DNA from: Psammoneis japonica
Lineage: Eukaryota
Length of the DNA stretch: 20,550 bases
Direction: 5' to 3'
Assembly: GCA_008632985.1 (NCBI GenBank)
Contig: QPGO01000099.1
Span: 289,679-310,228, forward strand
Position numbers and translations under genes: made by a program
Part shown: one piece after another, positions 1 through 20,550 of the stretch
Layout of the letters: each line of letters opens with the position of its first letter
Numbering within the stretch: the first letter of the stretch is position 1
The notes under the pieces: generated by a model
Told to the model about the DNA's origin: nothing
Databases searched by the model: none
The model's input: the letters and a program-made list of their open reading frames with translations, nothing else

Positions 1-4
1 TGCT

Positions 5-925: not shown

Positions 926-941
926 GGTTAGGGTTAGGGTT
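926..941 (+). repeat. Short interstitial telomere-like (TTAGGG)n motif
   Basis: GGTTAGGGTTAGGGTT read directly, upstream of the minus-strand gene at 5-751. Confidence 0.6.
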
Positions 942-2831: not shown

Positions 2832-3479
2832 ATGCGGCAGGTTGCCACATTTCTCACCGTGTTTGTCCTTTCGACCATGCTGAAGAAAAAATCGAGGCGT
2901 TCCATCACTCCAGAGACGCCAATGATGTCTCCCAAAAAGCAGATTGATCAAGACCGTGTGGTGACAAAAGGTAGAGTGCGTTTCAGTTCGGAGTCCACTC
3001 AGCTAAAGGTGATTCCGAGGAGAACCCCGTTGGAACAGAGAGAGTGTTGGTTCACCGCACATGACTACGCGTGTATCAAGAGACGCAATCAAGCTGCTAT
3101 TAACAGTGCCAAGAAAGGGATGTTCTTTGAGACTGAGTACGAGACCATTCGGGGTCTTGAAAAATTTATTTGGTTTGCCCCCAACGAGAAGCAACAACGA
3201 CGAAAAGCTACCATTGGACGGATTCTGAGTGAACAGAAACGACAGAAAGCGCTTGGTATTAACGACCCGAGTATGATTAAGGTGTTGTCGTCCATATACT
3301 CCAACTGGGAAAAAGATAAGGCTCTTGAGCTTGCAGCGGAAGACGAAACTGGCGTGTTAGAAACCAGAGAACCGAAGTTTCCGAGTTTCGAGAAGATGGT
3401 CGTCGTCGCAAATTGTGTCGAGAATGCGATTGAGGCATTCGCGAGTAACGCATTTGAACGTCGTACTATATGGTTGTAG
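2832..3479 (+). CDS. Second member of the diatom 'VxF...W...RGLE...LxEQxxQ...DP' family
   Basis: Contains RVRFS, CWFTAHDY, TIRGLEKF, ILSEQKRQKALGINDP and ALELAAEDE. First ATG is at 2832; the track start at 2808 is GTG. Confidence 0.8.
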   Translation: MRQVATFLTVFVLSTMLKKKSRRSITPETPMMSPKKQIDQDRVVTKGRVRFSSESTQLKVIPRRTPLEQRECWFTAHDYACIKRRNQAAINSAKKGMFFETEYETIRGLEKFIWFAPNEKQQRRKATIGRILSEQKRQKALGINDPSMIKVLSSIYSNWEKDKALELAAEDETGVLETREPKFPSFEKMVVVANCVENAIEAFASNAFERRTIWL

Positions 3480-3623
3480 ATACAATATGCGAGGCAAGAA
3501 ACGGCGAAGAGGCCACAGAAAATATTATTCATATGTGAAAAATGTAAACTGAGAAGAACGCTCTATACTACTTGAAGATTTTGTACAGTCAAGCAGACTC
3601 TCTCGAACCGCGTCTAGTACATA

Positions 3624-5762
3624 TTAGCTATGCTGAAACGCAACAGCTGCTGCTCTAAATGGTGCAGCTTGAAGCATTGTAGTTGGTCGATCCAGCCACT
3701 TAGATTCTTTGGATGCTTCCCAGACGACGCCAAAAACTTTGGTACTGAGGTTTGTCAATCCCCTTGCTTGCAGTGAGGATAAGGTAAAAAGAAAGTTATT
3801 CGAAACAAACTCCAAGACAGTTTGACACAACGCTTCGTCATTTTCCTTGACAATCGGAGCCCAGTAGCGAAAAATATTGACGAGGAGATTCTTGAGTCGA
3901 TACACTTGGCCTTCCGTTGCAAACTCCATGGCTTGGTCCAAGAAGTCAATTTGAGCCGCCTTGGCTGCTACGTCACTGCTAGCGTCAAGTATCGGAATAG
4001 ACACAGAGTCGAGGCATTCACGAATGTATTGGACCAGTCGTACCCTCAGTCGAGTCACACTACGACTATTTGGCCTTATACCAAACACCCAACGACAAAA
4101 TGAGGATATCGCCACTGTCTGGCTTGTCGAATATAAATTGTAGGCGCCCAATTCCAAAACTTTGACAACGGCGGCAACCAAAATCTTGTCGATGACTTGT
4201 TGAAGAGGTGATGCATCCTCCGATTCGTCCTTGTCGTTGTCTGAACTTTTCAACATTTCTAACCAGTCGAGTTGTGGGTGCTGTTTCTCGCCGAAATGCA
4301 AAGGATTCAAGTCCGAGCACATTTCAACGCGGACTAGCACACCCAACAGATCGGCAAAACTAAGAGACGCAAAGCACTGCTTGTATTCATCTGGATAGTG
4401 TTGTCGCCATTCCTCAAATACGCCAAAGAGACTTGACGTCGACGTGTAATCCTCGCTCAGTTCCTCCTTTGCGACATGAAGCGCCTCTAAAAGCGCAGTC
4501 CGTCGCTCTTCCTGGTCCTTTTCTTCATTCGAAGAGAAACCATTACTCGAGTAGTAGTCTTCCAGTGAGAAGCTCTCGTCCGTTTGTTGCTTTTCCCATT
4601 CTTGTCGACTCTGGCGTCGCTGTCGTGCGCGCTGTTCTCGTTGCAGCGCTTGTTGTGATTTGACATCTCTACCGAATTCATCGACTTGCGTCGCCACTTC
4701 TCGCGCTGGTATTTCTACTTGTTTTCCCAATACGCGGTCCAGTAACTGTGCCTCGGATAACGTCGCAATGACATCTGCCTGCCATTCTTGCAAGTGCTGC
4801 GGAGAAGAGATTTCGGTTTCGAGTTCCAACAAAGCTTGCTGCACCGGCTGTACTTTGGATTGCAGTTCTCGTAAGGCCCCTACCCACGACGCTAGTGTCA
4901 GACGGAGCTGCTGATAATACTCCAATGCCTTACCACTCTTGTCGAGTTCTTGTTCGTGTCGTTGTAATTCTGACCTTGTCTGCTGCAATTCCACCATGCG
5001 AACATCGTGAGCTTGTTTTATATCGTCCTGTTGGTTTCTCAAGTGACCCAGCGTCGATTCTACTTGTTGTTTCAATTGACTGAGCTTGTTCGAGGCGTCA
5101 TCGTTTGTGTTTGGTATGGCTTTGGAAGGTAGAATTCCTGCACGACGAGCAACTTGCGCCTCCCAATCTTGCGCTTCAGCATTACTATCGTCGGCAGCAA
5201 GAAAGGTTTGCTGCGGTTCCAATTCCATTTGCTCATGACTTTCATTCTGGTCAAAATTAATCGCCTCTTCTCCTGCCAGAATGACTGGCTCTGTCTCTTT
5301 AGCGGTGGAGAGAGGTATGTACGAAGGGAGAGACGTGCCTCCATCAGCTTCTACGTCTCGCGTCTCGGTACGTTGCTCCTCCGCTTCGTTCTTCTTTTCA
5401 ATCTTTTTCTTTTTGAAACGTTGCTGCGACTTGAGCTTCTCCATCGCTTCCTTTCCATACATGTCAGATTCGACGGCTTCGACGGTTTCCTCTTCAGCTT
5501 CAACAGTTATTTGTGCTCCGCCATAGCCCATACCGCCTCCTTTTCTCTTTTTCTTTTTCGTGGGTTCTTCTGTATCCAACTCGAACGAAATTTTGGAGGG
5601 AACTTTGGCTTTCTTTCGCCCTGATTTTTTGCTCTTTTGGACAGGACGCTTTACCACTACGATTTCATCTTCGGAAGACGACGCACCATCTTTATCATCA
5701 CCACTACTAGTTGACGTCGTCACGACTTTCTTCTTTTTCGGTCGTTTTGTGGGTCGAAACAT
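3624..5762 (-). CDS. GC-rich sequence DNA-binding factor-like (GCFC2/PAXBP1 family) spliceosome-associated protein, 712 aa
   Basis: Uninterrupted ORF from ATG 5762 with a Lys/acidic N-terminus including KISF, then WEAQV, a coiled coil, VDEFGRD and FEEWRQHYPDEYKQCFASLS. These resemble GCFC-domain proteins. Confidence 0.8.
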   Translation of the reverse strand: MFRPTKRPKKKKVVTTSTSSGDDKDGASSSEDEIVVVKRPVQKSKKSGRKKAKVPSKISFELDTEEPTKKKKRKGGGMGYGGAQITVEAEEETVEAVESDMYGKEAMEKLKSQQRFKKKKIEKKNEAEEQRTETRDVEADGGTSLPSYIPLSTAKETEPVILAGEEAINFDQNESHEQMELEPQQTFLAADDSNAEAQDWEAQVARRAGILPSKAIPNTNDDASNKLSQLKQQVESTLGHLRNQQDDIKQAHDVRMVELQQTRSELQRHEQELDKSGKALEYYQQLRLTLASWVGALRELQSKVQPVQQALLELETEISSPQHLQEWQADVIATLSEAQLLDRVLGKQVEIPAREVATQVDEFGRDVKSQQALQREQRARQRRQSRQEWEKQQTDESFSLEDYYSSNGFSSNEEKDQEERRTALLEALHVAKEELSEDYTSTSSLFGVFEEWRQHYPDEYKQCFASLSFADLLGVLVRVEMCSDLNPLHFGEKQHPQLDWLEMLKSSDNDKDESEDASPLQQVIDKILVAAVVKVLELGAYNLYSTSQTVAISSFCRWVFGIRPNSRSVTRLRVRLVQYIRECLDSVSIPILDASSDVAAKAAQIDFLDQAMEFATEGQVYRLKNLLVNIFRYWAPIVKENDEALCQTVLEFVSNNFLFTLSSLQARGLTNLSTKVFGVVWEASKESKWLDRPTTMLQAAPFRAAAVAFQHS

Positions 5763-7251
5763 GCTGATTCGGTACAAATTCTTCTTCACCTAAATAATCA
5801 CGAGAAGCATAGCTCAGTTTTTATTCACACAGACAACATGAAGCGAAGGATCATTGTGTATGTTGCGGGTTGCGGGCGGGTTTCAGGTTATGCGGTATCG
5901 TCTGCGGTGTGCTGCTAATTCTGGAGCTCGGACCTCGACAAAGAAGACGTCATCGGTCATCGGCGGCAGTTTTTTTTTTGCTACCGTAGAGCCTACGGCG
6001 GAATTGGTAATCCGATAGAGAGTACCAAGTTCCTACCCAAATTTTTACATACGATATAATGGTATTAATTCTACTTAGGTACACAAAAAAGATAGTGATT
6101 GAGAAATTTAGCAACGGTCACGACACAACAAATCTCCCATCTCTTCGACTTTTGCGCTCTCTCACAACTCGTCGTCTGCACGATGTGTTGTTGTTTGCCA
6201 AGCCTGAATGCCGTTATCGCCAAGGATGGCTCGCCCTTCCTCTGGATTGAGACCTTGCATTTGTTTGGCATTCCACAACTCATTTTGCTTGATGGCGTGT
6301 TGTCTCTAGGTGGCGTAGGTGTTGCCAGTTAAGTCCAGAGGTCGGGGCAAATCGAATGCGTCTCTCCGGCCTTGAGTCCATGTCACTCTCGTGTCTTTGA
6401 GCGTAGGAAGTTGCCTGTTCGCTTGACCCGTCAGGTCACGGCTGTTGAAACAGACAGCGGCGTTCGTCTGCGAAGCAGCAAAAGCTCGCCGAGCAGATCA
6501 TACTGTTGACGGAACACAGGTTTGGGGTTCTGTCGTATCAGTGGCATGATACGGTAAGTCTTCACTCGTAGGGAGTGTTGATTTAGAACGCGGTTGACTC
6601 GCAAGTTTTCTTGTTGTCTCCGTAGTACGTCCCCCCTTTTACTTTTTTTTTGTGATATTTTGTCACTCTGAAGATACGTAAAAGCTTGAGCGCTATCTTT
6701 TGATGACGCTCTTGAGGCAATGTTACCCTACGCTACCAATTTATATCAACTTTTGATATTGGTGTGTCTCAAATATTTGAAACACGCTTTGAACCTTTAC
6801 AGTAGATGTAGAAATACTTAAAGTACGACATAGCAATCTTTATTGGCGTGTTATTCATTCCGTGCGTACGTCAATGTGGACTGCGATGGCGGTCGTAGCG
6901 CTTGCAATGTCATCGCACACTTTAAACATGGGGTCCGCGACGGGGCATTCGTTACAGCGTGTTGTCGTTGATATGTGCTGGACTATTTCGGCGCTGATCG
7001 CCTGCATATTTTTATCGATTCGTCGTATTCACTTGTTGTTCGGGAGGAACAGAAGAATGCCGACTCTATGGATTCCGCTTGATCCTGTCAATGCACTTCT
7101 GTTTAAAATTCAAGCACAAAAACCAGAGGAAGCAGCGCAGAGCTACACATTACAAAGTCCATTAAAGATCAATTATGAAACAAATATACAGTAATATGAA
7201 GGAAAGTAGAAGCTGAACCGATCCTCCTTGAGCTGTCCATCCTTTTGTCGC

Positions 7252-10200
7252 TTAAACAAGGGGAGTCGTCTCAGTTTCTACTTCATTCTGCTGAGCATAT
7301 GCCACCTTGATATCTACAACGTTCATACAACCTGGCCATACCTCTCTCCACGCAGCTCTCATTTCGTGGCTTAGTTCAGGATGGTACCTTTCGAATTCCA
7401 CCGGGCTTCCCGCAAAACAAACGAGAACGGCATTGACCGAGCTACTAATGATTCCAAACAGGACACTGGTCAATACCAGCCCGACAAGCACGCCAATTCT
7501 ATCGTGTGCGATACAAATAAGAAATGAGCAAGGAAACAAACAAGGCAAACGAGCTTCCACTGGAAATTAGAACTTACGCAAACGCCTTTGCCGTCGCTCC
7601 CTGCAAAGCTTCTCTGTCGCCATTGATAAAGTTAAATCCTTCCAAATCTTCCACCAAAGACCCAAAGACCCCGGTGCAGCCTCCAATTACCAGACTAACC
7701 ATGAGTAAAATGTTTGGGATCAAGTCGTCCGCCACAATCTGCGCCCAGCCTCGCTTCTCAAATAGCTTCGTGGCATGGTGACCGGCATCAAGCAAGCTAT
7801 ATCCATACAATCCAACATAGGTAAAAGCAACGGATTAAAATATGCCGCCAAATTGTCCGCCACGGAAGCAATGCAATTTTGAATACACGACAGGCACTCG
7901 TGCAAGCACATGAGAGCCGTGTCGTCCACTTGGTTGGGACGGAAAAAGAGCGAAAACTGACGAATGAGACGGACGGGTCCGACAAGAAGGCTTCCAAAGC
8001 AAATGGATCCAAAGTACAAGGAAATTGAATACAAGACATTCCTTGTAGGAGTTCCGTCGCAAAATCGAGCATGTTCCTTAAACCACCAACAACCAATCGT
8101 CCCGGCCACCGAAACTTGGACAATATTCTGAACAGCAAACCGTGAAAATAGAGGATTAGATGAATCGAAACTCCGTACTGAGACACAACAATCGTAAACA
8201 ATATTCTTACCAATAGCACATGAAATGTCCAATAGTAAGAAATGGCAAGCATGGTGTACAGAAATATTGTAGCCTGTTTACCAATGACAAGATCGCCAGT
8301 TTCAATGGCGTCGTATACACCCACAACAACAAAGGTGTAGTAAATGGACCAACCCAACGCCAATCCTTGAAAGAAAAATGAAATTAACACGGTTCCAAAG
8401 TTTTCTCGGATAGCACTGAGCGCCGTCAGCAGATTCGCCGTGGCAAAGGGGATACGGTCCCAAACGACAAAGGTATAACCAACACTCAGTGCAAGGGCAA
8501 TGATTCCGGTAATGGGAACAATATTCTTTGGGCTCAGACCAATCCCAATGGTTCCCCAGCAAAAGCTCAAACCAATCGTCAGAATGAGCGCCACTTGAAC
8601 CACACGACGAGCAAACACTGCCATGAGCCACAAGACGAGCGACGACACGGCAATTGCAAAGGCCCCGCAGAGACAAGCCACATAAATGACATTTGCATAA
8701 GCCACCGTCACGTGTAAAGGATCATCGTCGTCATCAATTGAACCGTTCCTTCTGCTAAACGCGTCGGGACCATACATGGAACCCAAGTACACCATGCCAA
8801 TCAAGTGCAAGACAAACAAGACTGCAAACAAGACATCCCTGCAAGCCTTGGGCTGTTGCGTACCCTTGGATTCTTCCATGTAGATTTGTGCCGACTGCTG
8901 TCGCATATTCATCTTTCGGATGGATTGCGCCGATCGCTTGTGCCTACCGGACGATGATGATTCCTTGTTGGCTTGAATCAAGTCCTCAGGGACACCACCA
9001 CCCTCTTCCACAAAGTGCCCCAAGCTACGGGGTGTGTGAGGAGAAAACGTCACACCACGAGGATCCTCACCACCGCCGGGATACGATGACGGACCACTAT
9101 TACTTCCTTTGCGAAGGACCGATGCCGGAGGAGGAGTCATGGTTGCCGGAGACAAGCCCGGCGGAATGCCCATGGTTGTGTGAGGCGAAACCTGTTGGTA
9201 GGTTTGTACAGGAGACTGTGGGGGTGTCCTTCGGCTCCCACTTGTTGGTCGCTGCGGCGAAAAGGCATTGGCCAACGACATGATTTCGCCGCGAGGAGAA
9301 AACTGACTGCGAGGAGAATATTGCTGTCGAGGGGAGCTCTTTTCGGGAGTAATTCCGGCGGATGTTGGAGGCGGAACTGGCTGCTGCATGGAGCCGTACT
9401 GCTGCTGGATTTGTCCTGAAGCAGAAGAGGATCGTACCCGGTTGCTAGAGAACTGTTGGTTGCGGATACGACGAGAACCACCATTCTCCATAGGTGATGC
9501 GTCTACGGCCATCCCATCTTGATTTAAAATAGGAATGAGGGGATTGCCCGCAGGAGAAAGGGCGGGTGACTGACCATTCCAATATCCTACCATATCTGGA
9601 ACCGGTACGTTGGGATCACTCTGAACACGGTGATGCCCACGCATACGTTGGTGCGCTGGTGGACTCTGATACATTACCTGCTGCTGCTGTTGCTGCTGCT
9701 GTTGCTGCTGCTGTAACATATACTCCTGATACGTGGCTGGAGGATACAGTTGAGGAGGGATGGGGTAGCGCTGCTGCATCTGTTGCGCATAATATGGATC
9801 TTCCTGAGGATGTCCGTAGTAACGATAATCTTCACTGGTCGTTCGTCGATGGTGGTGATGGTGGCGCCGAGAATGATGACGTTCGCTTACTGCTTTCTTC
9901 CCAAACTCATTAGAAGCATACTGCTCTTCTTCCGTCAGCATGGGGCCCAAGTCTGAATTTGCTTTCTTACGCCTCCTCCTTCGCTCTGATTTACTAGACG
10001 TTCTGGTTGAGCCTCTGGAGTCGACCGCAGCAACTGGAGGCCGCGCCGTAGCAGAGGGCCCAATGGTTTCCAGAATGGATGGCTGCTGCAGAGCTGTTGA
10101 TGGTTCTACGAGTGGCTTGGTAGGCGGATCCTCGCCTGCTGTGTCTTCACGGTTGTCAGTTTGCGGTGTTGCGGTCGAAGTTGACGCCGGCGAGCCAATG

Positions 10201-10280
10201 TTGTTCTGCGTCATGGTTGTTGCCTCGGGGAAAAGTTGCCGAGGCCCGGCGTCTTCTACCGCCACTCCTCCAGCCATCAT
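7252..10280 (-). CDS. Choline transporter-like (CTL/SLC44/Pns1) membrane protein with long low-complexity N-terminus. Exons 10280-8211, 8127-7578 and 7498-7252; apparent 1-nt frameshift at ~7830
   Basis: Contains CRDVLFAVLF, VWDRIPFATANL, YYWTFHVLL|NIVQVSVAGTIGCWWF, FGSICFGSLLV, AFTYVGLYGYS, LFEKRGW, IVADDLI and SSSVNAVLVCFA. GT-AG introns at 8210-8128 (83 nt) and 7577-7499 (79 nt) join these in frame. Confidence 0.88.
9678..9713 (-). repeat. (CAG/CAA)12 polyglutamine tract in the CTL gene N-terminus
   Basis: ctgctgctgctgttgctgctgctgttgctgctgctg on the + strand encodes Q12 on the minus strand. Confidence 0.9.
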
Positions 10281-10720
10281 GTCTCAGTCATGTGGGGTGG
10301 TGATGGCTACTACTTCGCAGTTATCACCCCCACACGACGGGATTGCCGGGAAACAACTCCGGCACGTTTGTGAATTCTTCCGCTTCATGTCGCGTCCCGC
10401 ATGCATCGTACTTGGATCGCGAGCGGAGTTTTCCCGCCAAAAATACCGGCAGACAAAATGAAATTTTCATATCGAATTTTTATTTATTTAGGACGGAGAA
10501 ACTTGACGTCGTAGTTCTTAAGTGATCTGGCGTGCTTTCCACGTGTACTTAATAAAAGAAATTTTTCGACCGTTAGATCAATGAATGATGTATTCGGATA
10601 TTAATAGATCACTTATTGGACAAACTTCCGCAAATCATTTCGGACCCACACTCGCGATCTCACTCTTCGCAGACCGGAAAGCTCACCCACCACAAAACGA
10701 CATGGCATTGACACGCGTTA

Positions 10721-13700
10721 CCAGCGGCCCTTCCCGGGCGCAGCAGCTCTTTGCTGCACCTTCTTGATGGCTTGTCAAGGGTCATTGATGGATGAAAAAA
10801 TCAAACGGCACTCTTTGTCTCTCGCTCGTTCGTCAATTTCAAAACTGAAAAGCTTTGAGTTTGCCACAACATTTTCGGTTGTCAGCCTTGCACAACAATG
10901 GCCGACATTGTTGCTGTTGCTCTCACATGGCTCTTCCCACAAGAAGTGTCCTCCTTTGATGTGTGCCAGCATTTCAAGTGTTGGTCTTAGATTGTTTCTC
11001 TCTCGACGATTTTTTGGTTTCCAGCGGCCAAGCTGTGCAACAACGTGGCGGCTGTGCCGACCAAACTCATTTTTCCATTTTTTTGTGTGGTGTCAAGGGC
11101 ATGTTCATCCTGTCTCTGCAGACTTTTTCAAGCAAACAGAACATGGAATGCATTGACATGGTTGGGAAATCACATCTGAGTTTTGTCACACCACTGGGGG
11201 CACAAAGGCGTGTTTGCAATGTCAAAACACGCAGATGAGAGCAATCAACCACGAGTGCATCAACTTCTCCAACAAAGGTGCAGACAGACAGACAAAAAAA
11301 TGTCATTCCAGACAAGGTCAAAAAGCAACAATGTGCTGACAATGGCGGAACAAATCTGTGCCCAAATGACACCCCAGCCCACTTTCGGAAGTTGAGAGCT
11401 TTCACAGTGTTCCGCGACATGGAGAGTGTTGGTCAGAGCTCTTTTGCAGTGGATCAACCTTGTCTCTTGACCACTCTCCATTTCTGCTTCTGGCTTCATT
11501 GCAATCCATTGAAGCTTGGGTGGGTCCCTCTGCCATCACCTTCTTGGGCTCGACTCCATCCTGCCGTGTTGCCCTGGATTCAACAGCAACACCAGCAGCT
11601 TTGCATCAGGCAACTTTCAAGACTGCTGTGGAGCCAGATGATCCATCAACCACAGACTTGGGTGGACAATGATGCTGCAGCACATCTCATGAACCTTGTC
11701 AAAATCAATCCCAAGTCCAAGGCAGGGCATGCAGCCAACTCGTGGCCACAAAGCAGGTGCCGGTGCCCCACAACCTCCTTGATTTTGTCTGGCTGGAGGC
11801 TGGGATTGGGGTGCCTTTTTGCATGTCCTCTCTCAAGATCATGGTCAATGGTGGCACCAGTGGCCCACAGGAAGTTGGTCCACAGTCAAGCCCTTGACTG
11901 GCATCATGGAAATGTCGTTGCTCCAAGGGCCTGGTCAGAATGCAGGGGTCTGTCAAAAAAGACTTTGAAAAAAGACATTTGTGGCAGTGGCAATGCAAGC
12001 TTCTTGGGAGGTCTGGGCACACTGCATCAAAAGAAAAGAAAGATGAAGAGGAGGACCTTTTGACAGACAGCAAAGCCCATGTCAAACATGTGGGAGGCCC
12101 GCTGCACACGTGCAACAGCAAATCTTCCACCACAACAGTGTTGGAAGTCACCGTTTGACCTCTCACTGTTGTCAATGCTCCCCTGGACGTCAATGGATTG
12201 GTTGACAACATTTTGGAGTTGTTGTCTGAGAATCGCATTTTGGAGTTCTTGGCCATTGCACCCAAGCCAGCCAAAGAGGAAGAGGAGTGCAAGACAAACA
12301 GACCAAACAAAGAAGAAGCCAATGAAGCTGAAGGGGGAAATGCCTCAGAAAAGAAACCCTTGGGAGAATGATTGAACTCAACCTTTGACAAGGTTGGTGG
12401 CTTGGATGCCCAGCTGGACTCCATCATCCATTGTGTTCTTGCCAGTGGCGCCACCCCTGAAGCTGCCAAATGACTGGGCATCAACCATGTCCAAGGCATT
12501 CTTCTGAGTTCTGAGTGGGCCTCCTGGTTGTGGGGTGACCTTGTTGGCAAGAGAGTTGGCAACCTTGTCAGGTGCCCAAGAACAAATTGTCAACGGCCCT
12601 AAAATTCTTGATGAACTCATTCCGAAAAGCAAGTCCAAGCCCTCTTTGCTCCTGCAGAACAGAAATGCAAACAAGCTGGCAACATGTCTGCTTTTTTCAC
12701 ATTGTTGCTCTCAATGAAATGGACGCCATTGCCAGAAAGAGAGGCAGCGTGACAAGCAACATGGCTGGAGTGTGTGGCAGCATTGTCAACCAACTGTTGG
12801 CCATGACATGGATGGAGTCCAAGAGGCCAACAATGTCCTCATTGTTGGACTTGTGTGAATCAACCTGATCTGCTGGATCCAGCGTTGTTGCATCCTGGTT
12901 GACTGGAAGTGCATCTTTGGGCAGAATTGCCTGATGATGCTGGCAGAAAAGACATTCTTTGAGCTCATGCAAGGTCAACAAAGGAGGCAGGAGGAGTCAG
13001 CAAAGATGCCCAAGCATGTCTTGAAGACCTTGGCAAGAAGGGATTGCCTGTCATCACAGAGCACTGCACTGGAGCTGAACTTGCAGAGGCTTGGTGCGGA
13101 GTGCTGCAAGCTTTGCCTTGGCATGCACCACAGTGCAGCAGGATGATGATGGTGCCAATGGTGTTCTTGCAGTCAAAGACCTCAATGATGCCTTGAGAGA
13201 AGTTCGGCCAGTCCTTGGGAAGCAAGATGAAGTTTTGAAGGCAAGATGTCCTCATGGCACTGGCCTTTGCTCTTCTTCCATGAAGCGAGTCCTCTGTGAT
13301 CTTGATCAAATTTGTTGCACTGCCTTTGAGATCTTTCACTTTGGAGTTGGCAGAGTCAATGCCACCAGTTGGTGGTGGCACTGGAAGCAGGTGTGGAGCC
13401 ACTGCGCTTGCCACCCAGACTGCTGGCTGCCAAAGCTTCCTCTCGACTGGAGCATCAGAATTTGTTTGCTTTGCTACAGCACTGGACTTGCTGGTCGATG
13501 GGGGCTGGACAGGCTGCTGCTCTGGCAGAAAAGTTTGTGGAAGCCTGAGAAATGCCCGGGTCTCTTCCAGTTCTGAAGGACATTGACCAAGTTTGTGCGG
13601 GATCTGGACCCAATGGCTGCAGTGGCGCCATGATTTCCACTCTGCGGGCACTGCTGCAAACTCCACCTGGAACATCCACTGCAGCCAAGGCAGGCAGTCA

Positions 13701-13990
13701 GTCCAAGGTGACTGAAAAACACTTTCGAGTCATTGCTGCCACATCAATGTCCAATGCTGCCTGCTCTGTTTTGAATGAGTGCTTTGTCCAAACAGTTGCA
13801 GTTCCCCAGCCAGTTGGATCTGAATCAATGGCACAGCTGCTGCGGGATAGTTTCAGTGCAACTGAGAACATGTCCTCGACCCTGGACGAGGACAAAGTCA
13901 ATGCCATGGCAGATGCCATGAACAACTTGTTTGAGAATGGTGCAGGCGTCAAATTGGCCCTGCGCTTTGTCGAAAAGGCCATTGCCGTGG
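10721..13990. other. Hypermutated domain A: TpA almost absent, CpG depleted, TpG/CpA enriched
   Basis: Manual scan finds only 4 TA dinucleotides in ~3.3 kb (10988, 12600, 13475, 13848) and none in 10990-12599. Flanking DNA has TA on nearly every line. Confidence 0.92.
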
Positions 13991-14124
13991 TTACCATGGA
14001 ACAAAGTCACCTCGCGAATGACGCAGACTTGAAACGTTCACGATTGCACGCCCTGGAAGAAATGATGGAGGACTGCCTCAGCAACGAAGCTGTTGCAAAC
14101 GAAGTTTGCGATGCAACATTCTAG
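11419..14124 (+). pseudogene. Degenerate NSF/Sec18-like (vesicle-fusing) AAA+ ATPase gene, possibly with a bipartite plastid-targeting leader
   Basis: FDKVGGLDAQLDSIIHCVLAS..PEAAK*LGINHVQGILLS/GPPGCGVTLLARELA (12384-12561), IVNGPKILD, HIVALNEMDAIARKRGS (Walker B), SIVNQLLA/MDGV..NNVLIVGL, NQPDLLDPALLHPG*LEVH (second region of homology), EHCTGAELA/GLVRSAASFALA, a degenerate D2, and TAG at 14122-14124. Multiple TGA stops and frameshifts. The 5' start is tentative. Confidence 0.9.
12503..12516 (+). repeat. 7-bp tandem duplication (TCTGAGT x2) frameshifting the gene just before the Walker A motif
   Basis: cttctgagttctgagtgggcctcctggttgtggg; removing one copy restores GILLSGPPGCG. Confidence 0.85.
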
Positions 14125-14388
14125 TAAAACTGCTGTTGCTGCCACTGGTGACATAAATACTACTCCGCTATCCTGACACTGTATTTGACATGGTTGTAGC
14201 TAGAAGAGTTATGGAAGCTGCAATGAGGCCATTTCTCAGAAAGGAATGACACGGATTCATGGCAGCTCCAAAAAATATTGACTCGTCATGCTAAAATGGG
14301 CAGGTAGGGCAAAGGCGTCGAAGGCCTTGTATTCAAAATGGAATGGGCAGATTTGTAGCGCATGAATAAGTAGAAGAAACAGGATTAT

Positions 14389-15530
14389 TTACTCCTTGCC
14401 GGCTTTGGAGAGATCCACAGGAAGTAATCGGCGTTTGAATTCGGCCACCAATTCTTCGTGGGTTCGCTTTGGTTGACCAACATTCAAATAGTACTTGGCC
14501 AATTCATCAAACTTTCCGTTGAGAACCAATGTTCCCACTTCCATTGTTCCAATGCCGTCAAAGATGAGGGAATCGTTCGCAGCGTGCTTGTCCAAATTCT
14601 TCAAAAACAAGTCGGGAAGTTGATACCATGGTAGACCAGGCTCTTCGTGGTGTTCAATGTGGTATCCAGTATTGAAGTTGAGAGAGTTGGAAGGACAGTT
14701 GATGCAGCTCATGGCAGTCTTATAGTTGTTGCCGTAGTCCTCGGGATCAACGAAAATGTGTTCCTTGAAGTTTCCTTGCATCAAACCGAAACTGATAAAG
14801 ATCCACGGAAGAATCAAAGTGAACATGGCGGCGATTGGGCTGTTCATGTAGGCATAGGAAAGAATAGCAACAAAAGTGACCGAGCCTGTAAGAGATTGCA
14901 GTGCCAAGCCAGGCTTGTTCATTTGCATAAGTCGGAATGGCAATTCCAAGTTACCAAACGACCAGAAACGGAACATGTACTTGAAATGATTCCACTTGGA
15001 GGAGCGATCATAATCCATAGTGGAACTCATGTCGTGAGGAGCAACATTGTCAACTGCATGATGCATACCAATGTGGTGAGGGTAGTAGAGGCCAGGAGGA
15101 ATACCAAACATGACGCAAATACCAGCCTTGAAAACGTGGTCCAAGAAACGGTAGGTCGAGTTGAAAATGGAACAATGCGAAATGAAGTGCAATGCCAACA
15201 CGAAAGATCGTCCCCAGCACTTCATATGAATAGCTGTGTATGCAACTCCAAGAATGATTTGTTGGCTCACAGGTAGAAGATTGTTTTGTTCGATGTAGTA
15301 CAACATAACGGCAACTGGCAAACTGGTTGCAAGAATGTTCATGCCACGTAAAAGATTCCTAGGTTTCGGCGATCCTTGCGTCGAAGAAAGGTCTCCACAA
15401 CCCAATCTTCCAAGAACTTGGGAAAGGTGAATAGATGTTCCCGATGCTTTTGCTCATAATCAACGTAGTTGAGAGTCTTCTTGTTTAGAAGTTTCGCCTT
15501 GGTCGATGGTCGGACATCGGCAGCAACCAT
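14389..15530 (-). CDS. Membrane fatty-acid desaturase-like protein with three His boxes; apparent 1-nt frameshift at ~15344
   Basis: Contains HFISH, YYPHHIGMHH, GNFKEHIF and FNTGYHIEHH plus TM segments. The upstream ORF 15530-15339 (MVAADV...LGIFYV) joins MNILATSLP if one base is added at tacgtggcatgaac. Confidence 0.85.
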
Positions 15531-15874
15531 TTCTTGGTCGAAGGACTTTTCAGGAGCCTTGCAAATTAACTATAGCCTTCTTATTTACGATTTCTGTCGA
15601 AACGCCTCAAAAATACAGTGTAAATACGAACAGAGAATCAACAACGGAAGTGATCTCCACAAAGCCAACGCCCAATGCCAAGCAATGCAAGAGTCGCGAG
15701 CGAAGGTTGTCGTGAAAAAAAAATTGGGAAACAATAAATCGGTGTTCGCAGAAACTTGACTAGTTCGACTGATTGTTTTTGCCCAACTTCCCACGCGTTG
15801 CAACACGACAGACAAGCCGACAAACGACAATGGCGAAGAGCCGATGCGGCCCCGTTCTTGAAAACTGCCGGTCA

Positions 15875-15952
15875 GTGGCTAAAAGAATTTTGCATGCAAG
15901 TTGATAGCACTACAATTGAGTTCGTACTTCTATTAAAAAAACTTTTAGCCAC
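15875..15952. repeat. 11-bp perfect inverted repeat (GTGGCTAAAAG / CTTTTAGCCAC) at the border of hypermutated domain B
   Basis: Arms at 15875-15885 and 15942-15952. The match extends imperfectly inward (aatttt vs aaaaaa) and outward (CAGTGG.. vs CTGTGG..). Confidence 0.7.
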
Positions 15953-17599
15953 AGGAACAAATTGAAGAAGATGTGGACCCGGGCTGCTGCAGGAACATGT
16001 TTCTCTCCAAAATTCATCAAAGGCAAATTGGCCTTTGCAAAGTTCTGCTCATTCCTTCAAAAGGGGGCACCGGGTGAATTCCTTAGGAAAATGTGATTGC
16101 ACCCACTTGATGCATGCCATCAAGCCATTGTTGACAAAATTGCCAACAAAAATCTTGGCAGCATTTGGGGTGTCAGCCCAACCCCAGCACTTGGCCCTTT
16201 CGTTTGACAAGGGGTGACTTGATGCTGAGGCTGGCGGTGTTGTTGAAAACTGGAGCAAGGAGAAAGTGCCAAATTTGCATCCACCAGAAAGTCGTGAAGA
16301 CTTGCGTGGCAATGACTTCTTGAGTGTTGGTCTTGTCGCCCTCTCGGTCTCAAAGCCAACACAGAGATTGATGCTTTTGACAAGACACTCAATGTTGCAA
16401 ACAAACTTTGTGTTCTGAAGAAAAAGGAGAGTTGGCAGTGTGACAGCAAGGACAATGATGAGCTGACTTGCAGTGCTTCCACTTCTCAGGGTCTTTCCCA
16501 CTTGGACAGCTTGAGCTCACCTCCAAAATTCAGCTCATCAAAAAAACTCTCTCAGATGGAAATGGCGACAGTGTTCCCAGTTGGCTTTGCATTGACATTG
16601 ACAAGCGGCTCTCCTCAAACAGTTGTTGTCAGCTCAAAATGATGTTGTTGAACATGTTTGACATTTTCAAGCAACGTGTGGCATTGGTTGTTTCTGAATT
16701 TTTCTGAAATTTTTGATTTGTTGTCTTCTGTGTTGATGCTGAGTGTAAATTTGTGTTGTGCGAGCACCACTGTTGCTCATCCGATGTTGTGCCCAAGGAT
16801 TAAAAATGGCCAACAAAGTTGCAATGACTTTGGCGTGGACCAATCAAAAGTGCACTCACTTTGTGTGGACATGCCCAACTTCCCCAGATGGCCTGGAGGA
16901 AGTGTGCCACATCTGCATGGACTCACAGTGAGATTTCACATGACATTCACCTTCTTGCATCTGGATCAGACTTGTCATTGTTCTGCAGATGGAGTGGCAA
17001 CAAAATGGTTTGCATGGTTGTTTGAGTTGCATGCTGATCAACAGAAGCAACTGTCAACAATCAACCAACCACAACTCTGGAGCAGCACGATGATGGAGTG
17101 ATGATGGGGGCAGCACTGCCTGCAAACTCTTGCTTGTTTGCAAAGACAGGAATGGGAAGATGTCAGTGCAATTGTTCACTCAGCCAAATTTCAAGTGTTG
17201 TCTCTCTAAGAAGAAATGTCTTCTTGACATCCATTGAAGTGTTGCAGCAATGGGTGGCTTGCTCCATCCAAGCTGTCTTTAGATGCCATTGGGCACTGTG
17301 TGCTTGTGCTGGACAATGTCCCACAACAGCCATTGCCTGAGCAGAATTCATCCAAACTGCAAAGAAAAGCTGCCTTTGTCAAAGTGCACAACTCTCAAGA
17401 TCTGGAACAGCTTCATGACTTTTTGCATGAGGAGATCAACAAAATGTTTGTCTTGAGATGTTGCAACACAAGAGGCGCCAAAATCAACTGTCAACTTGCA
17501 GCTGTTCAGATCATGGAGTTGAGCAAGAATGGTGTCAGAGCTTGGAGTCAACAGAGCATTTAAAACTTCAGCTCTAGAAGAAGCTCAAATGAAGGCTTT

Positions 17600-18420
17600 G
17601 GACAGAGCATTGCCACAGACTTGCAGCGTGTCATTGGTGACGGAAATTGCCAGCAGCAGTGCACTGTCAGCAATTGTGGTTGTTCCTGTGAAGCCATTGG
17701 CTGCAGTGGGAGTGAGGGTTTGTTTGCCACTGCCGGCCTTCCTTTTGACAACAAAACCTCCATGCTGTTGTCATTGAGTGCACCGGTGAATGTGCTGCCA
17801 CGGCTGCCGGCTCCCAGCATCAGCAAGGAGTTGCCACCTGATGGCAAGTTGGGGATGTGCCGCGCCCGCCATGCCTGAAAGTTTGTCCAGTGATTTGACC
17901 AAGCTGGAGAGGAACAGGCTCAAACCACCACCCACATCAAGGCTGGAGGCATCAGGGATCTGGTTTGATGCCCCACTTCCCAGGCTGATTTGCAGTGTCA
18001 AGTTGTTGACCTGTGCCAATGTCCCCACTGTCCAACGTGCCAAAAAGCCCCACAAAGTTCAATGAACCAACACTCAAGTGTTGCCCATTGTGTTGACTTG
18101 CCCATTGGTGGTGGCATTGTCAATGTGCATCTCCCCCGCAAAGGACAGCTGCCCGCCAGATGCGCTGAGTTGCCCACAAAGACCTCGGCAGCAGAAAAAC
18201 TGTTGCCTGATCCAATCATCATGGTTGGTCTGGCAGTGTGCATGGTGTTGCTGGAGAATGGCACCGCATCACTGAGTGCCACTGTTCCACCAGAAATCTT
18301 CCAGTTGGCCCCATGGCACAATCACCATTGCTGTTGTCATTGCCCCAATGGACATCCGTCATTCTGCAGGCGGCAAAGGCAGAACTGAAAGCGGCAAAGC
18401 TGGTTGCAGCCTGTGGCCAT
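17600..18420 (-). pseudogene. Relic of a bacterial-type secreted protein with an autotransporter-associated beta-strand (PATR) repeat
   Basis: Minus-strand fragments across frameshifts: TDVHWGNDNSNGD..GANWKISGGTV, IGSGNSFSAAEVFVG, LGSGASNQIPDASSLDVGGG, GGNSLLMLGAGSRGSTFTGALND and KAGSGKQTLTPTAANGFTGTTTIADSALLL (17740-17651). The last fits the PATR pattern K.G.G.LTL...N.(Y/F)TG.TT(I/V)..G.L.L. Confidence 0.75.
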
Positions 18421-18825
18421 GCTTGGTGTCTCAGAAGTCATTTTTGTCATTTGTCAATTGCACTTTTCCAAGATCAAGCATGCCTGCTTTGAACAGGCCT
18501 TGACCTGTCATTGGGACAGTGGTGATGGTGAATGGGAAGGTGGCAAGAACCGCCAGAGTGTTGCAAACCAGCTGGCCCATCAGATGTCCTCAAGAATCAT
18601 GATGCCAAGAAGAAGAGGCCCCATCAAAGGTGCAGAAGCTGCCCACATGTGAGGGCAAAAGTGCTTGCAAACACAACTGCTTGCAATGATGTGGGTGTCT
18701 TTTCACCAAGTTTTCTTTGGACCAAAGATTTGCGTCAATGCTCCGTTGCACTTTGGGGCCACTCCTTTGCCCCAGCGGGGGTGCAAAGAGTTCCTTGCAC
18801 TCTTCAGGGCAATGAGGGCTGCACT

Positions 18826-19670
18826 TTAGAATTTGCACTGCTTGATGTTCCAACAGCCGATTGTGAGCATCACAGCAATGAAGAGAGTGCAGCTCTGTGC
18901 TGGCTGCCATGGATCAAATTGAGCATGTTGGGGTGGCTGCTGATGTCTTGGCCAAGCCCCATTGTGCTGGACACTGAGCCGTCAAGGGCATGGGTGTTTT
19001 TGCCAATCATGGTGCAGTGCATCATCCTGCCCAACTCTCCTGGTCATGGCAGAGTCATGCACAGTGGCACCACCATCCCATGGCAAATGGCCGCTGCGCC
19101 AATGCAAATGCCAAAGGGCTGCCAGCCTTCATTGAATTCAGGCAGCTTGGGCTGAGCCTTCATTGAATCCAGGCAGCTTGGGCTGAGAGTTTGCTTCGCC
19201 ATCAATGGGGGCAAGAACCCCATCAACTCTTGCACCTGCACCGCTTGATTGATGAGGAGCATCAAATCAGGGCTGTTGAAGGTCATGGCAGAGATGTTGC
19301 CCTGTGACCAAAGGCTGGCCATTCCCAGTTTCTGCTCACTGCTGTTGTAAATCCAAAGGCTGCAATTCTGAAACAAGAGGGCAAGCCACTTGCCATCATT
19401 GGAGGAGCCGATGAAGCATGGCGGCACTTCACCTTTGGGTGAGAATTCGTGCAGCTCATGCAGCATTTTGGCATCCAGCACAAAGACCTTGGTGCATCCC
19501 TGCAAAGGCCAAGAGTGGTGGCCTTCTGAGCGCTGTTGGCAATTTTCTCATGTTTGCTCTGGGTGCAGTTTCCTTCATCATCTGTGTTGAAGATTGCCAC
19601 ATTGCTGCTGGTGCAAATGGCAACCTGCCACCATGCATTGCTGGTGTCTGTCTGACAGCTCTGCCCAATC
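18826..19670 (-). pseudogene. Relic of the C-terminal part of a bacterial (Planctomycete-like) ABC-2 transporter permease with a beta-propeller-like extracytoplasmic region
   Basis: Fragments QVAICTSSNVAIFNTDDEGNC, LAFAG, KVFVLDAKMLHELHEFSPKGEVPPCFIGSSNDGKWLALLFQNCSLWIY, SQGNISAMTF, VVPLCMTLP*PGELG and DPWQPAQSCTLFIAVMLTIGCWNIKQCKF* (TAA at 18828-18826). The family assignment is from recalled resemblance, not a search. Confidence 0.55.
19124..19185. repeat. 31-bp tandem duplication (1 mismatch) inside the permease relic
   Basis: agccttcattgaattcaggcagcttgggctg (19124-19154) followed by agccttcattgaatccaggcagcttgggctg (19155-19185). Confidence 0.9.
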
Positions 19671-20550
19671 ATTCAAAATGATGCCCTTGTTGTCAACATC
19701 TTGCGTTGTTGCTGCATGCAATTCGCACAGAAAATTGCAAAAACCCAGCAACAGCAATGCCCCAAAATCAACCACAAACTGCATCCAGGGTCAATGTGGG
19801 TGAACATCCCTGCTCATTGCTCACCACAAGATGCGCATGGTGTGTTTTGTTGCATGAAAACTGGCCAACAGCATTGCCGGCAGCACACCACTGTCAGCAT
19901 TGAATGCCGCATGAAAAGCATGGGGACAACTCTTCTGTCGCATTTGTCTGTCTGTTGCCCAGCTGCACTGCATCTGTCAACAGTTTTTTCTGATGCACAT
20001 TTCTTCCACCTGTGGCATCCCCGCTGAAGCTTGTGCTCAGCCACCTTCACTGGCAGCATCCCCATTTCTCCCTTTCTCGTGTTCACAACAAGTTCTTCAA
20101 AGCCGCCAACCTGCGCACCTGCAGAGATTGCAACCACAGCAAGTGCACCTGCCTTTCTCTCCATGTCATCTTGAGGGTCACCTTCATGCCAAGCACTCTG
20201 TGCCTTGGACCACCCTCAATGCCAACATTGTTGCTTCCGCCCTCGGCAGACCGGCTCCAGTCCCAGGCGGGACTCCGTGTGACATTTGGCCCACAGAATT
20301 CTGTGCATGTGAACTCCGCAGTAAATTTGTCAAGCAATGAAAATGCAAATGATCGTCAACAGAAAAAGAGGCAATTTTACGAACCTGTCTCCTCCTCCAC
20401 ACTTGCAGCACATCACAAACAGCTTGCCCAGGTGTGTTCTGCAGACATCAAAGAATGCATCCAGCACACTCTGCTTGCTCTTCCTCCTCTCCCAGATGAC
20501 CCCATCTTCTGTCCTCTGAAGCCCCCTTTTGCTCTTGGCTCTTGGCAGAT

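What the first reader, a model, noticed from the sequence alone, without database searches (positions are those of the whole stretch)
17600..18420. Bacterial autotransporter-repeat (PATR) gene relic embedded in diatom DNA and hypermutated
Seen on the minus strand across frames the ORF track splits or misses: KAGSGKQTLTPTAANGFTGTTTIADSALLL, preceded by LGSGASNQIPDASSLDVGGG, LMLGAGSRGSTFTGALND and an N-terminal W..(N/D)..NG....GANW. Established: this architecture is typical of passenger-associated transport repeat (PF12951/TIGR02601) proteins, abundant in Planctomycetes and Verrucomicrobia, which are common algal associates. Inference: horizontally acquired bacterial DNA. Because it carries the same TA/CG scars as the host pseudogene, it is probably truly integrated rather than contamination.
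Basis: partly seen in the sequence, partly recalled or inferred. Interest (0 to 1): 0.8.

Follow-up and report, generated by a model that had tools for sequence, protein, structure and literature searches.

The report
Dead bacterial-type adhesin gene fragment
A short, broken piece of a bacterial surface-protein gene sits inside an alga's own DNA, in a stretch where nearly every TA and most CG steps have been mutated away, so it is a real but dead trace of gene transfer.

Summary
On the minus strand, about 17,590-18,360, several reading frames together spell a decayed fragment (about 250-290 codons, 6-9 frameshifts, 0-1 stops by partner) of a bacterial "autotransporter-associated beta-strand repeat" (PATR, PF12951) protein. 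One repeat core is still recognisable (Pfam E 2e-5, 25 bits against a cut-off of 27; my own PATR model E 4.6e-6, the only hit among 645 frames). A frameshift-aware alignment to real PATR proteins scores 162-186. Shuffled DNA reaches at most 93, reversed proteins at most 106, and other parts of the window at most 78.

The best partners found are proteins of a Lentisphaerae genome bin and a Verrucomicrobiaceae genome bin, at about 31-33% identity. The donor cannot be named, and Planctomycetes could not be tested.

The fragment has 0 TA and CG at 0.29 of expectation, like the rest of its 4.5-kb block and like a second block that holds a Cdc48-like host pseudogene. Contigs of a public DNA run cover it at the depth of the neighbouring genes. 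It is therefore integrated DNA, not contamination.

The route is open: direct bacterial DNA, a copy of a resident gene, or a mobile vector.

This scan has already noted the TA-erasing mutation on other pieces of this genome. It has not noted the PATR relic. "Diatom" was not verified here.

The parts
17590..18360 (-). Core of the decayed PATR-type beta-helix gene fragment. It is read across at least 4 frames, with 6-9 frameshifts and 0-1 in-frame stops depending on the partner.
   Evidence: Frameshift-aware alignments run 18,358->17,611 (P0007, 80/230 identical), 18,341->17,423 (L014 frame, 89/288) and 18,332->17,651 (L007 frame, 70/210). In 450-base tiles, the only four with signal lie at 17,326-18,450 on the minus strand and score 170, 114, 90 and 90. 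All the other 176 tiles score 69 or less.
17669..17740 (-). The one still recognisable PATR repeat core (KAGSGKQTLTPTAANGFTGTTTIA...).
   Evidence: PF12951 at E 2e-5, 25 bits, residues 11-34 of the frame 17,588-17,770. TIGR02601 at E 0.01. My own model at E 4.6e-6. 128 BLASTP segments of 20 bits or more against 10 PATR proteins.
17766..17983 (-). Inter-repeat stretch in two frames: ...LGSGASNQIPDASSLDVGGGLSLFLSSLVKSLDKLSG..., then ...GGNSLLMLGAGSRGSTFTGALNDN.
   Evidence: It aligns with LIPDASTVTVGAGATLSL...IDGLSGSG...GANTLIVGNNNSTTTFSGTLKDN of the Lentisphaerae-bin proteins, with frameshifts placed near 17,839 and 17,766.
18001..18358 (-). Upstream part of the relic (GANWKISGGTVALSDAVPFSSNT...), weaker.
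   Evidence: 22 BLASTP segments of 20 bits or more, rank 2 of 443 frames. Tile 18,001-18,450 scores 90. Frameshifts are placed near 18,323, 18,147 and 18,076.
16000..20550 (.). TA/CG-erased block that holds the relic. It runs off the window's end.
   Evidence: Per kb, TA o/e is 0.02-0.06, CG 0.19-0.35, TG 1.76-1.98 and CA 1.55-1.94. The edge lies between 15,801 and 16,200.
10800..14000 (.). Second TA/CG-erased block with the same signature, holding a host-type pseudogene.
   Evidence: AAA relic at 12,508-12,714(+): Pfam AAA at E 1.3e-6, VCP/Cdc48/AFG2-like at E 1.6e-12.
14389..15453 (-). Intact fatty-acid desaturase frame with normal TA and CG, lying between the two blocks.
   Evidence: A 354-codon open frame. 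TA 34/kb and CG 39/kb. Atlas score 0.96 to FA_desaturase clusters.

Best explanation
This is a non-functional fragment, about 0.75-0.9 kb, of a gene for a bacterial surface or secreted beta-helix protein of the PATR ('autotransporter-associated beta-strand repeat') kind. It is integrated in the nuclear DNA of the alga.

Most likely course (inferred): a piece of DNA from an associated bacterium entered the chromosome, probably of the Verrucomicrobia/Lentisphaerae kind. It carried no start, no signal peptide and no membrane anchor, so it never worked. It then fell into a silenced, gene-poor block.

Shown: the genome's local mutation process has turned every TA and about 70% of the expected CG into TG or CA, and ordinary decay or small indels have added 6-9 frameshifts.

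It does nothing now. Its value is as a record of a failed gene transfer and of what the TA/CG-erasing process acts on.

My odds:
- PATR-type relic, truly integrated and dead: about 0.85.
- Route, within that: direct bacterial DNA about 0.5, copy or captured piece of a resident bacterial-derived gene about 0.3, viral or other mobile vector about 0.1.
For: - Family. PF12951 at E 2e-5. My own PATR model hits 1 of 645 frames, at E 4.6e-6. The top 3 of 443 frames in the BLASTP pile-up all lie here.
- Collinear alignment across frames. It scores 186, 167 and 162 to two frames of a Lentisphaerae genome bin and one of a Verrucomicrobiaceae bin, with 89/288, 89/294 and 70/210 identical. Controls: dinucleotide shuffles at most 93, reversed proteins 106, 73 and 93, non-PATR frames of the same bacterial loci 32-69, and other window tiles at most 78 or at most 69.
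- Dead. It carries 6-9 frameshifts. The signal is confined to 17,326-18,450, while relatives are 1,300-2,100 residues long. No signal peptide, barrel or other domain was found in 127 frames.
- Integrated. It has 0 TA in 771 bases and CG o/e of 0.29, the same as its flanks and block 1. The relatives' genes have 11-22 TA and 96-125 CG per kb. A 797-base contig of run X1 covers 17,033-17,834 at depth 52.1, against 55.7 for the contig over the desaturase gene.
- Not a high-copy repeat. Summed depth is 52-103 over 17,276-18,691, against 31,000-35,000 at 20,108-20,550.
- Composition fits a GC-rich bacterial source. GC of 63% minus about 90 CG per kb lost gives about 55%; observed is 54%. The TG+CA count also fits, at 239 per kb. 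A host-like source of about 55% GC fits as well.
Against: - The Pfam and NCBIfam scores are below their curated cut-offs (25 against 27 bits; 15.6 against 19.85).
- The exhaustive search of 1.84 billion proteins with the best frame gave 3 hits at E <= 1e-3, and none is a PATR protein. One is a PKD-repeat protein with TLTVTAANGLTGTTT.
- Only 1 repeat core is recognisable where 2-3 would be expected.
- Part of the alignment score is composition: reversed proteins still score 73-106.
- Putting TG/CA back to TA or CG does not bring the codons closer to the bacterial proteins than a decoy change does: 15/163 against 15/95, 20/170 against 12/96, 13/121 against 9/68, p 0.65-0.96.
- Against a direct bacterial route: the same blocks hold host-type relics (a Cdc48-like AAA, and possibly an RBM39-like factor). 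The block therefore looks like a graveyard of gene pieces rather than one bacterial insert.
- Identity to every relative found is only about 31-36%.
- Run X1 may be the sample the window was assembled from, so it is not independent.
Confidence: 0.75

Rival explanations
1. The fragment is a pseudogene copy, or a piece captured by a transposon, of a PATR-like gene that already lived in the alga's genome after an older transfer from bacteria. It was mutated because it was a duplicate or lay in mobile DNA.
For: - The two mutated blocks also hold host-type gene relics: an AAA at E 1.3e-6 that is VCP-like at E 1.6e-12, and an RBM39linker hit at E 5.4e-4 with TIGR01622 at E 0.0096.
- The RBM39-like frame, the PATR relic and a weak beta-propeller-like frame all lie on the minus strand.
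- Earlier notes of the scan describe gene copies and a dead Helitron block with captured genes in this genome (unchecked).
- Composition does not tell a host-like source from a bacterial one.
Against: - No note of this scan on 279 windows of the genome mentions an autotransporter or adhesin, and none has a look-alike of the fragment.
- Run X1 shows only 1-2 times single-copy depth at 85% likeness.
- No eukaryotic protein came up in the exhaustive search.

All three are weak. The genome itself could not be searched.
Confidence: 0.3
2. The fragment came in with a virus or another mobile element that carried a bacterial-type beta-helix adhesin gene. The block is the wreck of that element.
For: - PATR repeats occur in 31 loci of viral contigs.
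- Giant viruses of green algae carry FhaB-like beta-helix and autotransporter-adhesin genes (PMC12906663, passages read).
- In Bigelowiella the TpA hypermutation hits integrated viruses (preprint 10.64898/2026.01.13.699255; abstract and sections 8 and 12 read).
Against: - No viral family: 0 of 61 frames of the block hit PHROGs, and no viral or transposon Pfam turned up in 127 frames.
- With the relic as the confirming sequence, 0 of 86 viral stretches passed.
- Viral-contig PATR frames align worse (135 or less) than the bacterial ones (186).
- Many of those viral-contig hits lie at contig ends and may be host flanks of prophages.
Confidence: 0.1
3. Bacterial contamination or a chimeric assembly: the fragment is not in the alga's chromosome.
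For: No listed contig bridges 15,696 to 16,039. Several alternative joints lie at 15,897-16,085. No long reads were examined.
Against: - The fragment has 0 TA and a 3.4-fold CG deficit, continuous with both flanks. This signature is shared with block 1, which one contig links to the desaturase gene (13,500-15,696).
- The bacterial relatives' genes have normal CG and 11-22 TA per kb.
- Depth equals that of the host genes.
- The frameshifts would be odd for a living contaminant.
Confidence: 0.03
4. Chance: a Gly/Thr/Ser/Ala/Leu-rich translation of TA-free DNA merely looks like a beta-strand repeat.
For: - Sub-threshold family scores.
- Single best BLASTP segments of the flanking frames (24-28 bits) lie within the window's noise, where an unrelated frame reaches 31.2.
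- Reversed proteins score 73-106.
- The Atlas scores are low, at 0.78.
Against: - z of 16-21 over dinucleotide shuffles, and 60-94 units above reversed proteins.
- The only outlier among 84 and among 180 tiles, including other TA-free DNA.
- Order and spacing of motifs match real proteins across four frames.
- 1 hit in 645 frames with my own model.
Confidence: 0.03

Closest known systems
Autotransporter-associated beta-strand repeat (PATR; Pfam PF12951, TIGR02601) proteins of Verrucomicrobiota. Here: two frames of a Lentisphaerae genome bin (L014 2,102 aa; L015 1,327 aa), one of Verrucomicrobiaceae bacterium UBA1938 (L007), and Opitutus terrae P0065.
   Same: - The repeat core K-x-G-x-G-(x)-T-L-T...N-x-F/Y-T-G-x-T-T-I.
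- The stretch before it: IPDAS...V..G..L.L......L.G.G......L..G......TF(S/T)G.L.DN.GG....K.G.G.
- Order and spacing are kept over about 290 residues.
- The G-x-G-x-QTL variant of the core also occurs in L014.
   Different: - About 31-33% identity only.
- One recognisable core instead of many. Intact repeats in that phylum score 45-58 bits; this one scores 25.
- 6-9 frameshifts.
- No start, signal peptide or C-terminal part.
- 0 TA and few CG.
- It lies in eukaryotic DNA.
TpA-restricted hypermutation of integrated viral and other foreign-derived DNA in Bigelowiella natans (Mettrop et al., bioRxiv 10.64898/2026.01.13.699255; abstract and sections 8 and 12 read).
   Same: TA is lost to TG/CA in sharply bounded regions while neighbouring genes are untouched. 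The authors report that TpA-poor coding sequences are enriched in domains of viral, transposon, bacterial or fungal source.
   Different: - A different alga.
- Here CG is depleted as well (o/e 0.2-0.3).
- Nothing is known here about rate or enzyme.
- The block also holds host-type relics.
- The preprint's supplementary tables (S6-S9), which list the Pfam families, could not be opened, so I do not know whether PATR is among them.
Bacterial genes in diatom nuclear genomes
   Same: A bacterial-family sequence physically inside algal nuclear DNA.
   Different: The published cases are mostly intact, expressed genes. This is a truncated, frameshifted and hypermutated piece with no sign of ever having worked.
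Repeat-induced point mutation (RIP) of Neurospora and other fungi (recalled; named in the preprint's discussion).
   Same: Local, transition-only mutation that kills selected DNA and leaves neighbours alone.
   Different: - RIP makes TA (C to T at CpA). Here TA is removed.
- RIP needs duplicated DNA. This fragment is at 1-2 times single-copy depth.

Membership tests
PATR / autotransporter-associated beta-strand repeat (PF12951, TIGR02601) | At least one repeat that reaches the family model's curated score. | tested here: inconclusive
   PF12951 at 25 bits against a cut-off of 27, E 2e-5. TIGR02601 at 15.6 against 19.85, E 0.01. True E. coli repeats score 24-33 bits. My own model gives E 4.6e-6, 1 of 645 frames.
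PATR / autotransporter-associated beta-strand repeat (PF12951, TIGR02601) | Similarity to the beta-helix between the repeats of bona fide members, in the same order. | tested here: met
   Frameshift-aware alignments score 186, 167 and 162 with 89/288, 89/294 and 70/210 identical. Controls reach at most 106 and at most 78.
PATR / autotransporter-associated beta-strand repeat (PF12951, TIGR02601) | Several repeat cores in tandem, 60-110 residues apart. | tested here: not met
   Only one core is detectable. The next best frame scores E 2.2. Two further degenerate cores are suggested by the alignments alone.
PATR / autotransporter-associated beta-strand repeat (PF12951, TIGR02601) | A complete secreted protein: signal peptide at the start, and a barrel or other anchor at the end. 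| tested here: not met
   No such domain in 127 frames. The signal ends at about 17,590 and about 18,360-18,450. The supposed N-terminal motif aligns to internal parts of the relatives.
TA/CG-erased (TpA-hypermutated) DNA of this genome | TA nearly absent, TG and CA in excess, with a sharp edge against normal genes. | tested here: met
   The relic has 0 TA, and TG+CA at o/e 1.92. Blocks against genes.
TA/CG-erased (TpA-hypermutated) DNA of this genome | Copies or alleles differ by transitions at the same dinucleotide (TG in one, CA in the other). | tested here: met
   Seven TG<->CA double differences among the 40 rows shown. Of all places, 191 of 230 are transitions. Whether the variants are alleles or paralogues is not known.
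Horizontally acquired bacterial gene | The family is confined to bacteria, and the sequence nests among bacterial ones in a tree. | tested here: inconclusive
   All named relatives are bacterial, but the searches were seeded with bacterial sequences. No tree was attempted at 31% identity over a repeat. PF12951 was found in 84 of 151 and 29 of 151 genomes of two bacterial phyla.
Horizontally acquired bacterial gene | Physical linkage to host genes, shown by reads. | tested here: inconclusive
   A 797-base contig links the relic to its non-PATR flank, and depth matches that of the host genes. No listed contig crosses 15,696-16,039.

The most novel reading that the evidence does not exclude
The TA/CG-erasing process of this alga is a defence that recognises foreign DNA as such, not only repeats. 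On this reading a single-copy piece of bacterial DNA was caught and mutated to death soon after it integrated. The relic would then be a snapshot of how the cell filters incoming bacterial genes, and such relics could be used to measure the rate of failed gene transfer.
Probability: 0.2. Interest if true: 0.8.

Novelty: new member of a known kind. Interest (0 to 1): 0.45.

Why it matters
Bacterial genes in diatom-like algae are usually reported as working genes. Dead, partial arrivals are rarely documented, yet they are what a high rate of DNA uptake with a low rate of success would leave behind.

This fragment also bears on what the TA/CG-erasing mutation acts on, a process seen throughout this genome and in one preprint on another alga. 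It is low-copy and of a bacterial family, yet fully mutated. It sits beside host-type pseudogenes, so the trigger cannot be simple repeat number alone, nor foreignness alone.

It also shows that ordinary domain scans miss genes in such DNA, and that frameshift-aware comparison recovers them.

Tried and rejected
- Word-index protein search with the best frame: 76 candidates, none at E <= 0.01 or <= 10.
- Exhaustive HMMER search with the best frame: 3 hits, none PATR.
- tblastn against plasmids: no match.
- Scan of bacterial genomes with the frame alone: 514 stretches, none confirmed.
- ESM Atlas on the inter-repeat frame: best score 0.78, a lead only; PATR clusters at ranks 5 and 22.
- Inter-repeat frame alone against 301 genomes: 1 genome matched.
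- Metagenome scan: 5 loci, best alignment 162, no closer relative.
- Reversion test: does putting TG/CA back to TA or CG bring codons closer to the bacterial residues than a decoy GT/AC change? No enrichment, p 0.65-0.96. The relatives are too distant for this test.
- Phylum comparison with the best frame: 10 of 301 genomes against 1 of 301 (8 of 299 against 0 of 300 without the genomes I started from). I do not take this as a donor signal, because PATR is about 3 times commoner by genome, and about 5 times by match, in the first phylum.
- Composition as a test of source: a GC-rich bacterial source and a host-like source of about 55% GC both fit.
- NCBIfam, PHROGs and Rfam on the block: nothing beyond the items listed.
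- Expression: no RNA holder was listed, so nothing can be said.
- The window's own genome is not held, so paralogues could not be sought.
- Literature: full-text searches found no report of a PATR-type sequence in a diatom or other alga. The searches were 'diatom' + 'horizontal gene transfer' + 'autotransporter' (16 papers, 12 listed, none on this), the PATR/PF12951 terms, and 'horizontal gene transfer' + 'diatoms' + 'bacterial origin' + 'pseudogene'. I saw listings and abstract starts only, except for the three papers cited as read.
Full report
**Setting**

The window looks eukaryotic.
- Positions 1-10,500 hold long open frames with ordinary dinucleotide content.
- Positions 14,389-15,453(-) hold an intact fatty-acid desaturase frame.
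- Two blocks, about 10,800-14,000 and about 16,000 to the window's end, have almost no TA (o/e 0.00-0.06), little CG (0.18-0.35) and a large excess of TG and CA (1.55-1.98). Their edges are sharp at the 200-base scale.

Earlier notes of this scan describe the same TA-erasing pattern on many other pieces of this genome (unchecked AI notes). One of them led me to a 2026 preprint on Bigelowiella natans. There, TpA-only hypermutation hits integrated viral DNA, and TpA-poor coding sequences are enriched in foreign-type domains (abstract and sections 8 and 12 read). I did not verify that the organism is a diatom. The window's genome is not held.

**The observation**

All the quoted peptides are present on the minus strand between 17,651 and 18,347, in four different frames.

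Family models:
- Of 8 local frames, one (17,588-17,770) hits Pfam PATR at E 2e-5 and 25 bits. The cut-off is 27.
- NCBIfam TIGR02601 gives E 0.01, also under its cut-off.
- In a scan of 127 frames of 45 residues or more from both blocks, this was the second-best hit. The best was an AAA ATPase fragment.
- Single true PATR repeats of E. coli K-12 score 24-33 bits, and no false hit appeared in that genome's six frames. Intact repeats in Verrucomicrobiota score 45-58 bits. So 25 bits is what a damaged single repeat would give.

Searches that failed or argue against:
- The exhaustive HMMER search of 1.84 billion proteins with this 61-residue frame gave only 3 hits at E <= 1e-3, and none is a PATR protein. 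They are an odd repeat protein, a peptidoglycan-binding repeat protein, and a PKD-repeat protein whose strand TLTVTAANGLTGTTT resembles the relic's TLTPTAANGFTGTTT.
- Word-index searches, a plasmid search and a first genome scan found nothing.

**Getting real family members**

I aligned the frame with E. coli K-12 PATR segments and used that profile to harvest PATR proteins (1,654 at E <= 0.001 among 7,999 candidates, 120 listed). Most listed are enteric YfaL-type adhesins. Eight are long non-enteric proteins, one of them from Opitutus terrae.

Local comparisons of ten of the harvested proteins with every stop-to-stop frame of the window (443 of 30 residues or more):
- In best single segments, the PATR frame ranks first (32.0 bits). 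An unrelated frame follows at 31.2, and the neighbouring frames (27.7, 24.6, 23.9) are within noise.
- In the number of segments of 20 bits or more, the three top frames are all in the finding (128, 22 and 17). The best unrelated frame has 12, and a fourth local frame has 8.

**Frameshift-aware test**

I wrote a local protein-to-DNA alignment that allows frame changes (BLOSUM62, gap 7, frameshift 10).

Against the eight non-enteric proteins:
- The tile 17,576-18,526(-) scores 128, and the overlapping tile scores 115.
- The best of the other 82 tiles scores 78. The median is 49.
- Sixty dinucleotide-preserving shuffles of the relic give 58.1 +/- 6.1, with a maximum of 79.
- The alignments run from about 18,358 to about 17,611. 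They have 80/230, 70/210, 52/144 and 78/285 identical codons and 2-9 frame changes.

They were two Akkermansia, Verrucomicrobiaceae UBA1938, Rariglobus, a Lentisphaerae bin, and one alphaproteobacterium.

Long frames from these genomes align better:

| Partner | Score | Identical codons | Frame changes | Stops | Window span |
|---|---|---|---|---|---|
| Lentisphaerae-bin frame L014 (2,102 residues) | 186 | 89/288 | 6 | 1 | 18,341->17,423 |
| Second frame of the same genome, L015 | 167 | 89/294 | 8 | 0 | 18,583->17,648 |
| Verrucomicrobiaceae frame L007 | 162 | 70/210 | 6 | 0 | 18,332->17,651 |

Controls:
- Other frames in the same bacterial loci score 32-69.
- Forty shuffles per protein reach at most 93, giving z of 16-21.
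- The reversed proteins score 106, 73 and 93. Composition therefore explains part of the score, but not most of it.

The matched motifs come in the right order: IPDAS..., the L.G.G turn, ...TF(S/T)G.L.DN.GG, then the repeat core. The bacterial partner even shares the unusual G-x-G-x-QTL form of the core.

Extent and repeat count:
- With 450-base tiles the signal is confined to 17,326-18,450(-), at 170, 114, 90 and 90. All other 176 tiles score 69 or less.
- A PATR-core model that I built from 94 bacterial repeats hits 1 of 645 frames of the window, at E 4.6e-6. The next best is E 2.2. So only one core survives where two or three would be expected.

**What it is**

It is a fragment of about 250-290 codons of a protein family whose members here are 1,300-2,100 residues long.
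- It has no start, signal peptide, barrel or other domain.
- It is broken by 6-9 frame changes.

In autotransporters the PATR motif sits in the beta-helical passenger and is reported to aid its secretion (PMC9977779, passages read). None of that machinery exists in an alga, and the piece is dead.

**Is it in the alga's chromosome?**

- Dinucleotides. The relic has 0 TA and 16 CG in 771 bases, with TG+CA at 239 per kb, like its flanks and like block 1. The genes of its bacterial relatives carry 11-22 TA and 96-125 CG per kb.
- Reads. One public DNA run of the same organism label holds 82% of the sampled words of 14,300-19,300. It may be the source sample, so it is not independent.
- Its contigs include one of 797 bases over 17,033-17,834, with 16 other letters, 5 gaps and depth 52.1. 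Another covers 13,500-15,696 at depth 55.7. That one ties block 1 to the desaturase gene.
- Summed depth over 17,276-18,691 is 52-103, so the relic is low-copy. The window's last 440 bases reach 31,000-35,000.
- No listed contig crosses 15,696-16,039, where several alternative joints lie, and no long reads were seen.
- Variant contigs differ from the window by 2-7% inside the block, but by 0.3% over 13,500-15,696. The changes are mostly transitions (191 of 230 places). They include seven TG-versus-CA double differences among the 40 rows shown, which is what independent mutation of one ancestral dinucleotide in two copies or alleles would leave.

Contamination or a chimera is therefore very unlikely.

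**Where from, and by what route?**

All named relatives are bacterial.
- The best frame finds matches at E <= 0.01 in 10 of 301 genomes of the phylum that holds Akkermansia and the Lentisphaerae bin, against 1 of 301 Pseudomonadota. Leaving out the genomes I started from, that is 8 of 299 against 0 of 300.
- PATR itself is found in 84 of 151 genomes against 29 of 151, with about five times as many matches. My seeds also came from the first group. This is a lean, not a donor call.
- Planctomycetota could not be sampled.
- Viral contigs do hold PATR repeats (31 loci), but they align worse (135 or less). The block has no viral or transposon family.
- A metagenome scan found nothing closer.

The block is not one bacterial insert.
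- Block 1 holds a Cdc48/VCP/AFG2-like AAA relic.
- Block 2 holds a possible RBM39-like splicing-factor relic at 16,632-16,799(-).
- There is a statistically insignificant beta-propeller-like frame at 19,047-19,547(-).
- GC steps up from 43-45% to 51-56% at about 17,600 and stays there to about 19,550.
- The relic's 54% GC and its TG+CA count fit a 63% GC bacterial gene that lost about 90 CG per kb. A host-like source of about 55% GC fits too.
- Reverting TG/CA does not improve the match to these distant relatives.

I therefore commit to 'integrated, dead fragment of a bacterial-family gene' at about 0.85. I split the route as direct bacterial DNA about 0.5, copy or captured piece of a resident gene about 0.3, and viral or mobile vector about 0.1.

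**Novelty**

Bacterial genes in diatom-type genomes are well known (recalled, not read here). The TA-erasing mutation is known to this scan and from one preprint. Three full-text searches found no report of a PATR-type sequence in an alga (listings only).

This is a new member of known kinds. It has one point of wider interest: a low-copy sequence of a bacterial family is as fully mutated as the repeats and pseudogenes around it.

Noticed in passing
window 12,508-12,714 (+): A fragment of a Cdc48/VCP/AFG2-type AAA ATPase (Pfam AAA at E 1.3e-6; PDB VCP-like at E 1.6e-12) inside the first TA/CG-erased block.
   Followed up: partly
window 16,632-16,799 (-): A possible relic of an RBM39/CC1-like splicing factor: RBM39linker at E 5.4e-4 and TIGR01622 at E 0.0096, at matching profile positions. 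No PDB hit. It is a eukaryote-type piece in the same block as the bacterial-type relic.
   Followed up: partly
window 20,108-20,550: In the public DNA run, summed contig depth here is 31,000-35,000, against about 55 over the genes. Many contigs start near 20,249-20,314. This is the edge of a very high-copy repeat. It has no Pfam, PHROGs or Rfam match.
   Followed up: no
window 16,039-16,401, 17,033-17,834, 19,268-19,540, 19,511-19,832: The run holds variant contigs that differ from the window by 2-7% inside the mutated block, against 0.3% over 13,500-15,696. The changes are mostly transitions, with TG in one copy where the other has CA. This suggests two alleles or copies mutated independently, hence recently.
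   Followed up: partly
window 17,600-19,550: GC content steps from 43-45% to 51-56% at about 17,600, which is the 3' end of the relic, and stays high for about 2 kb. Only the first 0.8 kb of this stretch is recognisable.
   Followed up: partly
window 19,047-19,547 (-): A 167-codon open frame with weak, non-significant beta-propeller hints (EML propeller at E 0.18; UTP4 at E 0.098). In TA-free DNA only TGA stops remain, so long open frames arise by chance.
   Followed up: partly
window 19,124-19,185: Two head-to-tail copies of a 31-base unit, 97% alike.
   Followed up: no
window 15,897-16,085: Several alternative joints in the run's contigs (skips of 76, 143, 443 and 488 bases) lie at the left edge of the mutated block. 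This points to structural variation or repeats at the boundary.
   Followed up: no
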